DNA of 64,000 nt from a virus. A model generated the notes under the pieces. The model worked only from the letters and a program-made list of their open reading frames with translations, was not told where the DNA came from and ran no database searches. Where the stretch lies: positions 15,490 to 79,489 of the IMG/VR virus record IMGVR_UViG_3300044712_000499. One strand, 5' to 3'. Position numbers and translations under genes: made by a program. Every line of letters starts with the position of its first letter. Within the stretch, counting starts at the first letter, position 1. Below are positions 12,224-14,415 of the stretch, piece after piece.

Positions 12224-12653
12224 ACCTCCAAAAGTAAATCAAATTAATTAAATATCCAAATCTTTAGTAGGTTTTGTTTTAAACTTTAGCGGGTTTGCTC
12301 ATAAAAGAGCATAGTATGGGCTTTTGTTTTGCATTTGGTTTCTCTCAATTTTGAATCTTTTAACTCTCATCCGAGAACCAAAGAAGAATCTGCTATTGTT
12401 TCGCTCAACTCTGGGTGGTAGGCATAGTCCCCCTTACCCCCACAGCCTTTATGCCATGGAAGTAGCCTACCACCCGTCGTCTCGCTTACAACCCTTCATC
12501 TTGTAATATCCTTCATACTACCGAAAACAAAAACCCGACCTCTACTGGCTCGATTGTTAATGTTTTTGATACCGTAACAATTATGGTATCCCGCTTATGT
12601 GGTGGCTTGGCGGGCTCATCGCCACCTAAAGATTATATGAGTTATGGGAAATG

Positions 12654-12727
12654 AAAAAGAGGGAGGACTTTATTTGCACATGATGTAAGACTGCGATTCG
12701 ATGACCGCTTACCTCCCTCTATTTGAA
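12654..12727 (-). ncRNA. Candidate ~75-nt small RNA / attenuator
   Basis: Promoter TTTG(12758-61)-20 nt-TAAATTTG(12731-38); 9-bp stem AGAGGGAGG/CCTCCCTCT plus U-tract. Confidence 0.45.
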
Positions 12728-12848
12728 ATACAAATTTACTCAAATTAATCATCATGTGCAAATATTTTGACTTAATTCTCCGCAAAGATAATACTTTTTT
12801 TGAATATAAAAAATCCGCCAAAGACTTGCACGATAATTTTATTATAAT

Positions 12849-12856
12849 TATCTTTG
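12849..12856 (+). promoter_or_regulatory. Bacteroidota -7 element (TATCTTTG)
   Basis: Exact TAnnTTTG. Further plus-strand boxes at 16369, 23920, 30840, 34906, 35380, 38353, 45082, 45466, 46148 and 49770, all near gene starts. Confidence 0.7.
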
Positions 12857-12975
12857 TATTGAATACAACAATATGCCCCTCGGTTGAAACGGGGTTAATT
12901 ACTAACCGATTTTTTGCTGATTACAAGGATGAAGTTTACCGAGGGGTTCTTTGAAAGTTATTAACTCTATATATT

Positions 12976-13236
12976 ATGTGGATTACTTTACCGGTTCTTT
13001 GGGCAGACGATGATTGGGAAAGGAAAGAAGACCTTGGGCAGGACGTGGAATACCACGAAGACGACCTGAGTATAAATGTCAATAGTATCACTGCCTATCA
13101 TAAAGATGATGAGGGAACCTTAATGCTCAGACTTAATAATGGTGACGTTTTTAGATCAAGGATTAAGTTTGAGTCCTTTGTTGCCCTTCTTAATGATTGT
13201 AATGTACAGGTAGAGTTAAAGTACACAGATAACTAA
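12976..13236 (+). CDS. Hypothetical protein
   Basis: 86-aa acidic ORF downstream of a promoter. Confidence 0.65.
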   Translation: MWITLPVLWADDDWERKEDLGQDVEYHEDDLSINVNSITAYHKDDEGTLMLRLNNGDVFRSRIKFESFVALLNDCNVQVELKYTDN

Positions 13237-13252
13237 GTTCTTTTTTTCTTTT

Positions 13253-13468
13253 GCAGTAGTGTGTGCCGATGGGTCGGCAAAGGGGAACACTCTGGGTAAC
13301 ACGGTGAGTTAAGCGATTAGTAACCGTATCTTCAATAATTCATAGACCCTCTTCTCGTTGTGTGTGATATAGTCCGCTACGACTATGACTTAGAGAAGTA
13401 ATTTCCGAGACTGCTACAGGATATGCAGCACAGCAATGTGGTACGGAATCACGCAAATGCAAGCAATT
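13253..13468 (+). ncRNA. Candidate structured non-coding RNA (~215 nt)
   Basis: No credible ORF; nested stems TGCCGA/TCGGCA, ACGGT/ACCGT, CTTCTC/GAGAAG, ATAGTC/GACTAT, TTCCG/CGGAA, CTGC/GCAG; ends at a terminator. Confidence 0.5.
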
Positions 13469-13503
13469 AAAAAGGCTACTCTTTCGGGTAGCCTTTCTTT
13501 TTA
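13469..13503. terminator. Bidirectional intrinsic terminator
   Basis: AAAGGCTAC-tctttcgg-GTAGCCTTT with A-run 5' and T-run 3', between convergent units. Confidence 0.8.
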
Positions 13504-14415
13504 TCTAGCTGTTGGCATCATTATTCCTGATTTACACTTTAGTGGGGTATCCACCTTACGACTACGGCAGATAGCACCACAGTCTTTGCACCTAAAGGCT
13601 AAGTACCTATTAACAGATGTAGAGTAGTGACCGCACTCATCAATATTAGTTGAACCGCAAGTAGGACAAGATGGTTCTATTGACTCCTGGTAGATAGCCA
13701 TGTTAGGATGAGACTTTATATAAGGTCTTAGGAATACGTATGCTTCTTCTTCAAGTAGTACGTCCTTCTTATTGTAGGTTAGCATCTCCTGTAATCTTTC
13801 CGGTACTCCCTGCATACAATCAAGCCATAGTTGATATTCTGTATGAATCTTTCTGTCGTGCAATAGAAGTTCGCTTATGTAGTCTAGTTTGTTGGACGCA
13901 AACCTGAAGTTCTGTTGTGCTATTGTAAGTGTATCTATGGTGCGGTATGGTGATGGTGGTGCAAGTTTATTAACAATGAAGCGAGTCTGCGCCTTAGGGA
14001 TATCAAATCGGTTTATGTTGTGACCTATAACTACATCGCATTGATCTAAAAACTTCCACAGTTCTCTTGCTATGCGTGAGTCATCTCTATTTACAGCCTC
14101 TTCGGGAGTGACAACAGACCCATAGACCTTAGAATCAAATAACCACTTCCATGAGTAGGATAACATGAACCAATCATTGATTACCTGCTCATAACCTATC
14201 CTTTGCTTCCATGTACCCCATACGTTAACCTGCATAGGGCTAGTCTCGATATCTAAGATACCTACTTTAGGTTGTTTTGTTTCCCAAAATCTTTTCTTTC
14301 TTTCGTAGCGTCTGAGTGTTTCGGCTGTAATGCCAAAGTGTTGGAGTGTTTCTGTTTCGCCATTTTCATTTAAGAAGGCAAGTACTTTTTCTAGATATTC
14401 TATGCTTACAGCCAT
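13501..14415 (-). CDS. DEDD/RNase H-like 3'-5' exonuclease with N-terminal HTH-like and C-terminal Zn-finger regions
   Basis: LDIETSP, GHNINRFD, DTL, YNKKDV; CPTCGS...CKDCG. Confidence 0.8.
   Translation of the reverse strand: MAVSIEYLEKVLAFLNENGETETLQHFGITAETLRRYERKKRFWETKQPKVGILDIETSPMQVNVWGTWKQRIGYEQVINDWFMLSYSWKWLFDSKVYGSVVTPEEAVNRDDSRIARELWKFLDQCDVVIGHNINRFDIPKAQTRFIVNKLAPPSPYRTIDTLTIAQQNFRFASNKLDYISELLLHDRKIHTEYQLWLDCMQGVPERLQEMLTYNKKDVLLEEEAYVFLRPYIKSHPNMAIYQESIEPSCPTCGSTNIDECGHYSTSVNRYLAFRCKDCGAICRSRKVDTPLKCKSGIMMPTAR

What the first reader, a model, noticed from the sequence alone, without database searches (positions are those of the whole stretch)
13253..13503. Multi-stem ~215-nt RNA with group-I-intron-like words in a non-canonical order
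Seen: at least six nested stems followed by a strong terminator. It contains GGGT-AAC-ACGGTGAG...TAACCGT (like P3-J3/4-P4) and GATATAGTCC (13366-75, like the group I S element), but the complementary GACTAT comes after S rather than before it, and no host gene is interrupted. Inference: a stand-alone ncRNA, possibly a permuted or degenerate ribozyme core; the resemblance may be chance.
Basis: partly seen in the sequence, partly recalled or inferred. Interest (0 to 1): 0.6.

Follow-up and report, generated by a model that had tools for sequence, protein, structure and literature searches.

The report
New pseudoknotted RNA gene in phages
The flagged stretch is a real gene for a folded, pseudoknotted RNA of about 215 bases, from an uncatalogued family carried by a clade of uncultured phages that probably infect Bacteroidota; it is not a group I intron, and its function is still unknown.

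Summary
Window 13250-13463 (+) is a multi-helix RNA followed by an intrinsic terminator (13471-13505).

Folding of the window sequence alone is not significant (z = -1.2). The comparative evidence is decisive:
- A covariance model built only from seven metagenomic relatives finds the window copy full-length (32 bits, E about 4e-6), plus eight other copies and nothing else.
- Across 16 copies that average 50% identity, 95% of cells pair and 42 of 49 pairs show compensatory changes.
- Among the nine copies not used to derive the structure, 38 of 46 pairs do.

The fold is two closing stems (P0, P0b), a five-way junction (P0b, P1-P4) and a covarying 6-bp pseudoknot between the P2 internal loop and the P3 loop.

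Rfam 15 has no match, for group I introns or any other family.

The RNA ends a host-promoter-driven unit: tRNA(CAU) or a tRNA-sized structure, then a small ORF, then the RNA. It is optional: 16 of 21 close relatives carry it.

Function is unknown. My best guess is a stable trans-acting RNA with a structured binding core.

The scan has noted other orphan phage RNAs near tRNA genes, but no look-alike of this one.

The parts
12849..12856 (+). Bacteroidota-type -7 promoter box TATCTTTG (TAnnTTTG); likely promoter of the whole rightward unit
   Evidence: Every relative with enough upstream sequence has the same kind of box, usually with TTTG near -33, 400-875 nt upstream of its RNA. No such box lies directly upstream of the RNA. 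Promoter activity is inferred.
12875..12947 (+). tRNA-sized three-way-junction structure at the place where relatives carry tRNA(CAU); context only
   Evidence: MFE z = -2.9. Not a tRNA by ARAGORN or Rfam. No similarity to the relatives' tRNAs.
12976..13236 (+). Small ORF (86 aa), a conserved family directly upstream of the RNA in 14 of 16 loci
   Evidence: Alignment A8. AF2 pLDDT 82.6, a beta fold with a C-terminal helix. Only weak LytTR-like matches. It occurs without the RNA in L023 and L038.
13250..13463 (+). The structured RNA (family model match, full length)
   Evidence: cmsearch with R1, which was built without this sequence: 32.1 bits, E 7e-6 to 3e-6.
13251..13263 (+). 5' strands of closing stems P0 (13251-57) and P0b (13259-63); partners at 13456-62 and 13450-54
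   Evidence: All 13 pairs of these helices show compensatory changes in the family. Window pairs listed.
13265..13278 (+). P1 hairpin GCCGA-UGGG-UCGGC
   Evidence: 5 of 5 pairs covary; 98.8% of cells are paired.
13281..13350 (+). P2 arm: P2 (13281-84 / 13347-50); conserved GAAY (13285-88); pseudoknot 5' strand ACACUC (13287-92); weak P2a (13293-96 / 13331-34); conserved A-UCAU-R (UCAU at 13340-43)
   Evidence: P2 has 4 of 4 pairs covarying and 100% paired. Consensus.
13301..13327 (+).
   Evidence: Falls in insert columns of alignment A7 that only the window and L034 fill.
13351..13398 (+). P3 hairpin (13351-56 / 13393-98). Its loop starts G-UU and carries the pseudoknot 3' strand GUGUGU (13360-65)
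   Evidence: P3 has 7 of 7 pairs covarying. Pseudoknot: 5 of 6 in-register pairs in the window; family-wide permutation test 0/20000.
13369..13386 (+).
   Evidence: Falls in insert columns of A7 and is absent from most relatives.
13403..13448 (+). P4 (13403-07 / 13444-48) enclosing P5 (13411-14 / 13425-28) and P6 (13429-32 / 13437-40, GCAA loop)
   Evidence: P4 has 4 of 5 pairs covarying and 100% paired: UUGCG/CGCAA, UUGUG/CACAA, AUGUG/CACAU, UUCCG/CGGAA. P5 and P6 in the window are by homology and by eye; an alternative MFE pairing exists.
13471..13505 (+). Intrinsic terminator, usable on both strands; overlaps the stop codon of the convergent exonuclease gene
   Evidence: 11-bp stem plus T tract. 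All RNA-bearing relatives have one in the same place.
13501..14415 (-). Convergent gene for a DnaQ-like DNA polymerase exonuclease subunit; the anchor used to find relatives
   Evidence: phrog_403 E 1e-86; PF13482.

Best explanation
Window 13250-13463 encodes a member of a previously uncatalogued family of structured non-coding RNAs (about 170-225 nt). The family is carried by a clade of roughly 80-kb environmental phages that probably infect Bacteroidota.

Proposed mechanism, step by step:
1. The RNA is the last element of a short rightward unit. A host-type promoter (TAnnTTTG) drives it. The unit holds a tRNA(CAU) or, in this phage, a tRNA-sized structure, usually a small ORF, then the RNA, and ends at an intrinsic terminator. 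(Layout shown; transcription inferred.)
2. The RNA folds so that two stacked stems (P0, P0b) tie its ends together. A five-way junction carries P1-P4. A 6-bp pseudoknot locks the 5' strand of the P2 internal loop to the P3 loop. (Supported by covariation.)
3. The tied ends and the terminator hairpin make it a stable species once it is cut from the upstream message. (Inferred.)
4. The few invariant unpaired bases cluster around the knot and the junction: GAAY, A-UCAU-R, G-UU and AAY-UUGYG...ACRCAA. They form a binding surface through which the RNA acts in trans on a protein or other partner. (Inferred.)

The module is optional and sits in a variable slot beside tRNA genes. The job is therefore more likely an accessory one, dealing with host interaction or translation, than core replication. 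It is not an intron.
For: Family and fold:
- Model R1, built from 7 metagenomic loci only, finds the window copy plus 8 other unseen copies full-length. Nothing else reaches E<=1 in 197 kb.
- 16 copies: 95.3% of cells paired, 42 of 49 pairs with double changes, covariation 0.714 against at most 0.118 for slid partners, 0/500 shuffles.
- The 9 non-seed copies alone: 94.1% paired, 38 of 46 pairs, 0.771 against at most 0.145.
- Mean pairwise identity is only 50%.
- Pseudoknot: self duplex energy -5.84 against -3.08 +/- 0.45 for swapped partners, 0/20000, with many distinct complementary 5-7-mers.
- Strand: 62 G-U pairs against 2 A-C.

Transcription unit:
- A conserved TAnnTTTG box lies 400-875 nt upstream, and none lies next to the RNA.
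- tRNA(CAU) sits on the same strand upstream in relatives.
- A terminator follows the RNA.

Host guess: the nearest cultured phages infect Flavobacterium, Cellulophaga, Tenacibaculum and Bacteroides.

Independence from neighbours:
- The RNA occurs without the small ORF in L004 and L009. The 78-kb record G002, which holds L004, has no homologue of the ORF.
- The ORF occurs without the RNA in L023 and L038.
- 16 of 21 close relatives carry the RNA. More distant relatives carry none.
Against: - There is no expression data, and the 5' end is unknown.
- No partner is identified. The phage encodes no RT, RtcB or Ro.
- The trans-acting binding role is an inference from architecture and context only.
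- The alignments used for pair counts were fitted to the model, which favours the structure. This is mitigated by the non-seed test, the slid controls and the MAFFT-only alignment.
- The window's own P2a and pseudoknot are weaker than the family norm.
- The family is small (16 sequences) and confined to one phage clade.
Confidence: 0.55

Rival explanations
1. It is a cis-acting 3' element of the upstream message. On this reading it is a structured 3' UTR that stabilises or regulates the small-ORF/tRNA transcript, not an independent RNA.
For: No promoter lies directly upstream, and the RNA starts 14 nt after the ORF stop. The ORF and the RNA are adjacent in 14 of 16 loci.
Against: The RNA is kept where the ORF is absent (L004/G002, L009). 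The ORF is kept where the RNA is absent (L023, L038). A terminator hairpin alone would protect a 3' end. A five-way junction, a pseudoknot and invariant unpaired bases are far more than that job needs.
Confidence: 0.15
2. It is a new self-cleaving or otherwise catalytic RNA, for example one that cuts itself free of the upstream message at its 5' edge.
For: It has a complex pseudoknotted fold with a handful of invariant unpaired nucleotides. It lies at the end of a polycistronic unit from which it must be released.
Against: No known ribozyme family matches in Rfam 15. Host RNase P and RNase E processing near the tRNA could release it without catalysis. There is no conserved candidate cleavage site upstream of P0, and the spacer there is variable.
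Confidence: 0.12
3. It is a ligand-sensing (riboswitch-like) domain. On this reading it controls read-through of the terminator into antisense transcription of the exonuclease gene.
For: It has an aptamer-like size and a junction-plus-pseudoknot architecture. A terminator follows 8-12 nt after P0.
Against: I saw no alternative pairing between the P0 3' strand and the terminator arms (read by eye). No same-strand gene lies downstream in any locus. In L038 the RNA is missing and I saw no terminator-like hairpin after the ORF (read by eye), so RNA and terminator behave as a gene with its own stop.
Confidence: 0.05
4. It is a permuted or degenerate group I intron core.
For: Short words resembling P3/P4 and the S element occur at 13294-13327 and 13366-13386.
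Against: No Intron_gpI match even at E<=10. The words lie in lineage-specific insert hairpins. The small ORF ends at the same C-terminus with or without the RNA, so nothing is split. The conserved topology differs from group I.
Confidence: 0.02

Closest known systems
ROOL (Rfam RF03087) and GOLLD (RF01998), ornate RNAs of phages and prophages
   Same: They are orphan, highly structured, pseudoknotted RNAs of phages with no known function, often beside tRNA islands. One GOLLD example lies downstream of a Met-tRNA (PMC12286853, read). Here the RNA lies downstream of tRNA(CAU) in relatives.
   Different: They are 3-4 times larger (about 580 to over 800 nt). There is no covariance-model match. They come from other host groups. 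They are shown to self-assemble into cages, which nothing here shows.
Bacteriophage T4 stable RNAs C and D (species 1 and 2) of the tRNA region
   Same: They are small stable phage RNAs of unknown function, co-transcribed with tRNA genes and released by processing. This comparison rests on my own knowledge of the T4 literature, not on a tool result.
   Different: No homology was tested (I held no sequences). T4 infects Enterobacteria, and the T4 RNAs are shorter (about 120-140 nt).
phi29-family packaging RNA (pRNA, Rfam RF00044)
   Same: It has ends paired in one helix and a multi-helix junction. It shows very low sequence identity between relatives with a conserved fold. An internal-loop strand and a hairpin loop covary; in pRNA that pairing is intermolecular. 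These pRNA features are from my own knowledge.
   Different: There is no model match. pRNA is essential and confined to about 20-kb protein-primed phages. This RNA is optional (16 of 21 relatives) in an 82-kb phage with a large terminase.
Group I introns (Rfam RF00028)
   Same: Similar size to the smallest group I introns, presence in phages, and a few short word resemblances.
   Different: No model match, no interrupted gene, a different conserved topology, and the resemblances lie in non-conserved inserts.
Class II tRNAs (five helices around one junction)
   Same: Five helices meet at one junction with very short linkers. The RNA sits next to tRNA(CAU), and the invariant UCAU in the P2 arm equals the U33-CAU of such a tRNA.
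   Different: No tRNA model match. No D-loop or T-loop signatures and no CCA end. P2 and P4 carry large internal domains. The resemblance is topological only.

Membership tests
Group I intron (RF00028) | Match to the Intron_gpI covariance model | tested here: not met
   No hit at the gathering threshold in 64 kb, none at E<=10 in 13150-13600, and none in 12 homologous loci at E<=1.
Group I intron (RF00028) | Interrupts a host gene whose exons rejoin | tested here: not met
   The RNA lies between the stop of the small ORF and a terminator. ORF homologues in RNA-less loci (L023, L038) end at the same C-terminus.
Group I intron (RF00028) | Conserved P3-P7 pseudoknot, P4-P6 domain and G-binding site | tested here: not met
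The covariation-supported topology is P0/P0b, P1, P2(+P2a), P3 and P4(+P5/P6), with a pseudoknot between the P2 internal loop and L3.
Group I intron (RF00028) | Guanosine-dependent self-splicing | not testable with these tools
   Needs an in vitro assay.
ROOL / GOLLD | Match to the Rfam models RF03087 / RF01998 | tested here: not met
   No hit.
ROOL / GOLLD | Phage or prophage location near tRNA genes | tested here: met
   tRNA(CAU) or other tRNAs lie 0.4-0.9 kb upstream on the same strand in relatives. The window itself has no tRNA.
ROOL / GOLLD | Homo-oligomeric RNA-only assembly | not testable with these tools
   Covariation cannot tell intramolecular from intermolecular loop pairing.
tRNA / tRNA-like | Cloverleaf with D and T loops (RF00005, ARAGORN) | tested here: not met
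   No tRNA call on the RNA.
Riboswitch | Lies upstream of, and on the same strand as, the gene it controls, with a competing expression platform | tested here: not met
   In every locus it is followed only by a terminator and a convergent gene.
Known self-cleaving ribozymes, RNase P, tmRNA, 6S, SRP, Y RNA, pRNA (Rfam 15) | Covariance-model match | tested here: not met
   No hit. The GGAACAGUCCGGGG resemblance to RNase P CR-I occurs in only a few members, and its variable part is the pseudoknot strand.
Retron msr-msd / Y RNA systems | Partner gene (reverse transcriptase; Ro or RtcB) in the same genome | tested here: not met
   PF00078, PF05731 and PF01139 are absent from the complete 82.6-kb genome.
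LytTR domain (for the neighbouring small ORF) | Sequence or fold match to LytTR | tested here: inconclusive
   PDB profile hit 3d6w E = 0.15. VIA Z 4.7 (rmsd 2.7, 60 aligned) and AgrA Z 4.6. No Pfam hit.

The most novel reading that the evidence does not exclude
The covarying 6-bp contact between the P2 internal loop and the P3 loop is intermolecular, not intramolecular. That would make it a miniature, Bacteroidota-phage counterpart of phi29 pRNA rings or of the ROOL/GOLLD nanocages, made next to the phage's tRNA(CAU).
Probability: 0.1. Interest if true: 0.8.

Novelty: categorically new. Interest (0 to 1): 0.6.

Why it matters
Complex-folded RNAs with invariant unpaired bases and a pseudoknot are where new ribozymes, ligand sensors and RNA-protein machines have come from.

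This one is compact (about 200 nt) and very well supported by covariation. It sits in a transcription unit driven by a host-type promoter, beside tRNA(CAU), in phages of a major environmental phylum. It adds a tractable example to the unexplained pattern of ornate RNAs next to phage tRNA genes (ROOL, GOLLD, T4 RNAs C and D).

The novelty claimed is at the level of RNA family and fold, not of a demonstrated new mechanism. A large unnamed catalogue of predicted viral RNAs (Fremin et al. 2023, PMC10690425) could already list it; I could not check.

Tried and rejected
- BLASTN of the window RNA against the public phage collection and against relatives' intergenic regions found nothing. The family is too diverged for sequence search. 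Synteny through the exonuclease gene found it instead.
- Single-sequence folding is not significant.
- Rfam gave nothing but tRNAs.
- The RNase P CR-I resemblance was rejected: only a few members show it, there is no model hit, and the topology is wrong.
- An RNP with the upstream small protein is weakened, because each occurs without the other. The protein's fold is only weakly LytTR-like or PH-like, and the Atlas gave unnamed viral clusters.
- The AGTTCTTT motif as the RNA's own promoter was rejected. It is enriched genome-wide but mostly inside genes, and its spacing to P0 varies.
- DNA-pattern scans of viral contigs for family motifs gave only the known L002 contig and one chance hit inside a gene.
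- The genome-collection scan gave one short, probably mis-binned contig with too little flank.
- Cellulophaga phage phi38:1 has no gap after its exonuclease gene.
- The supplements of Fremin et al. are not held.

Full report
WHERE IT LIES. The window is 64 kb of a complete 82.6-kb virus record with direct terminal repeats. The flagged stretch fills the 264-nt gap between two convergent genes. One is an 86-aa ORF on the + strand (12976-13236). The other is a 304-aa DnaQ-like DNA polymerase exonuclease subunit on the - strand (13501-14415; phrog_403, E 1e-86). A terminator hairpin at 13471-96 has a T tract on one side and an A tract on the other, so it serves both genes.

THE OBSERVATION ON ITS OWN. 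Rfam 15 gives no match at gathering thresholds anywhere in the window. A permissive search of 13150-13600 returns only terminator look-alikes, and no group I intron at E<=10.

FINDING RELATIVES. BLASTN finds nothing. I therefore searched by synteny, using the exonuclease protein as anchor. That fetched 5 viral loci, then 32 metagenome loci and 20 viral loci. The close relatives (exonuclease 60-90% identical) mostly show the same layout: a small ORF, a gap of 170-260 nt, a terminator, then the convergent exonuclease gene. A plain MAFFT alignment of the gaps already shows hairpins whose two sides change together. Examples for P1 are GCCGA/UCGGC, GGAGA/UCUCC, CCCCC/GGGGG and CGUGG/CCACG. Examples for P4 are UUGCG/CGCAA, UUGUG/CACAA, AUGUG/CACAU and UUCCG/CGGAA.

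THE FAMILY TEST. I built a covariance model (R1) from seven well-aligning metagenomic loci only, using the RNAalifold consensus. Searched over 197 kb of loci plus the whole window, it finds the window element full-length at 13250-13463 (32.1 bits, E 7e-6). It also finds eight other copies that were not in the seed, and nothing else at E<=1. There is one copy in the whole genome.
- On the 16-sequence alignment, 95.3% of cells form standard pairs. 42 of 49 pairs have changes on both sides. The covariation score is 0.714, against at most 0.118 when partners are slid by 1-3 columns, and 0 of 500 shuffles reach it.
- Because that alignment is fitted to the model, I repeated the count on the nine sequences that played no part in deriving the structure. 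The result was 94.1% paired, 38 of 46 pairs with double changes, and 0.771 against at most 0.145.
- The sequences are on average only 50% identical (range 35-87%).
- G-U pairs outnumber A-C by 62 to 2, so the RNA is read from the window's + strand.

THE FOLD. Two stacked stems, P0 and P0b, pair the 5' end with the segment just before the terminator. P0b, P1, P2, P3 and P4 meet at a five-way junction with linkers of 0-5 nt.
- P2 (4 bp) opens into an internal loop and continues as P2a, which has a tip of variable length.
- P3 (7 bp) has a loop of about 13 nt that begins G-UU.
- P4 (5 bp) encloses P5 and, in many members, P6.
- The six bases on the 5' side of the P2 internal loop are complementary to six bases of the P3 loop in nearly every member, with different sequences each time. 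Examples are AUGGCU/AGCCAU, ACAAUU/AAUUGU, AUCUUC/GGAGAU, ACGGC/GCCGU, GACGUA/UACGUC, AUACC/GGUAU and AACAAUA/UAUUGUU.
- Mean duplex energy of own partners is -5.84 kcal/mol, against -3.08 +/- 0.45 for swapped partners. No swap in 20,000 reaches it.
- The window has ACACUC (13287-92) against GUGUGU (13360-65), 5 of 6 pairs. That is weaker than the family norm.
- The only near-invariant unpaired bases are GAAY after P2, A-UCAU-R on the 3' side of the P2 internal loop, G-UU at the start of the P3 loop, and AAY before P4.

THE GROUP I IDEA. In the family alignment both fall in insert columns, one at the tip of P2a and one inside the P3 loop, and most relatives lack them. They are decorations peculiar to this phage, not the conserved core. 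No gene is split: the small ORF ends in the same ...(E/D)N stop whether or not the RNA follows. Together with the absent model match, this rejects a group I origin as far as sequence analysis can.

CONTEXT AND TRANSCRIPTION.
- Every relative with enough flank has a Bacteroidota-type -7 box (TAnnTTTG, mostly TATCTTTG), usually with TTTG near -33, 400-875 nt upstream of its RNA on the same strand. In the window it is at 12849-56. None lies directly before the RNA.
- Between promoter and small ORF, relatives carry a tRNA, most often tRNA(CAU). The window instead has a tRNA-sized three-way junction (12875-12947, z = -2.9) that is not a tRNA.
- The unit is therefore promoter, tRNA or tRNA-sized element, small ORF, RNA, terminator.
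- The nearest cultured phages infect Flavobacterium, Cellulophaga, Tenacibaculum and Bacteroides. That fits the promoter type.

AN OPTIONAL, SELF-CONTAINED MODULE.
- Of 21 distinct close relatives with readable flanks, 16 carry the RNA.
- L007/L008 has the exonuclease most like the window's (90% identity). It carries an HNH-AP2-type ORF in the same place instead.
- L030 carries another ORF there.
- L023 and L038 keep the small ORF but lack the RNA.
- Conversely, L004 and L009 have the RNA without the small ORF. The 78-kb record that holds L004 has no homologue of that ORF anywhere.
- More distant exonuclease relatives (36-49% identity) and Cellulophaga phage phi38:1 lack the RNA.
- The small protein folds confidently (pLDDT 82.6) into a small beta structure with a C-terminal helix. 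It matches LytTR DNA-binding domains only weakly (E 0.15; Z 4.7). It is therefore a neighbour and not an obligatory partner.
- The genome has no reverse transcriptase, RtcB or Ro protein.

HOW IT PROBABLY WORKS.
- Shown: a conserved, knotted, end-closed fold on the + strand, at the end of a unit with a host-type promoter box, followed by a terminator.
- Inferred: the RNA is cut from the polycistronic transcript (tRNA processing would already sever the 5' part). It then persists, because its ends are paired and followed by a terminator hairpin. It acts in trans through the surface formed by the knot, the junction and the few invariant bases.
- I put about 0.55 on this reading as a whole. That the element is a genuine structured RNA family I put above 0.9.
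- The rivals are a cis-acting 3' element (0.15), a new ribozyme (0.12), a ligand sensor controlling read-through (0.05) and a group I remnant (0.02).
- A more novel variant is that the covarying loop contact is intermolecular and the RNA self-assembles, as pRNA, ROOL and GOLLD do (about 0.1).

COMPARISON WITH WHAT IS KNOWN. By context, the nearest things are ROOL and GOLLD. They are phage and prophage RNAs, often near tRNA islands, and one GOLLD lies downstream of a Met-tRNA (PMC12286853). The T4 stable RNAs C and D are also close by context (my own knowledge). By fold it belongs to none of them. A screen of IMG/VR predicted 10,006 unnamed candidate viral RNAs (PMC10690425), and I could not check whether this one is among them. 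Earlier notes of this scan describe other orphan pseudoknotted phage RNAs beside tRNA genes, but a sequence look-up found no look-alike of this family.

VERDICT. The stand-alone ncRNA reading is supported and the group I reading is rejected. This is a new RNA family and fold of unknown function.

Noticed in passing
window 12303-12813: An ORF-poor stretch of about 500 nt is 68% identical over 540 nt to L021:4495-5001 (-) and partly to L014. It contains a long hairpin (GGTGGTAGG...CCTACCACC, about 12415-12476). It could be a second non-coding RNA or a regulatory region between the methylase gene and the rightward promoter.
   Followed up: partly
window 12875-12947: A tRNA-sized three-way junction with a 10-bp closing stem (MFE z = -2.9) sits where relatives carry tRNA(CAU). 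It is not recognised as a tRNA and is not similar to those tRNAs.
   Followed up: partly
window 12849-12856 and relatives: A conserved Bacteroidota-type promoter box TATCTTTG, with conserved upstream CGCAAAGATA...TTTTTT.AATAT, is shared by the window, L021 and L014.
   Followed up: partly
L007:1223-1699 (+): In the relative whose exonuclease is closest to the window's (90% identity), a 158-aa HNH-AP2-type ORF (a homing-endonuclease look-alike) directly follows the exonuclease gene, in place of the small ORF and the RNA.
   Followed up: no
L009:3712-3935 (-): Upstream of the L009 RNA, the motif AGTTCTTTnnCATAAGATAT occurs twice. The first copy is followed by about 190 nt without an ORF and then its own terminator. 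This may be a further small RNA gene in place of the small ORF.
   Followed up: no
window, 18 sites (e.g. 13236-13243): AGTTCTTT occurs 18 times against 4.6 expected (0 of 100 shuffles reach 18), on both strands and mostly inside genes. Unexplained.
   Followed up: partly
L065 (JBBACM010000072.1): The only match in the genome collection is a 5.6-kb contig binned as a Candidatus Paceibacterota MAG, with an exonuclease 68% identical. It is most likely a mis-binned phage contig.
   Followed up: no
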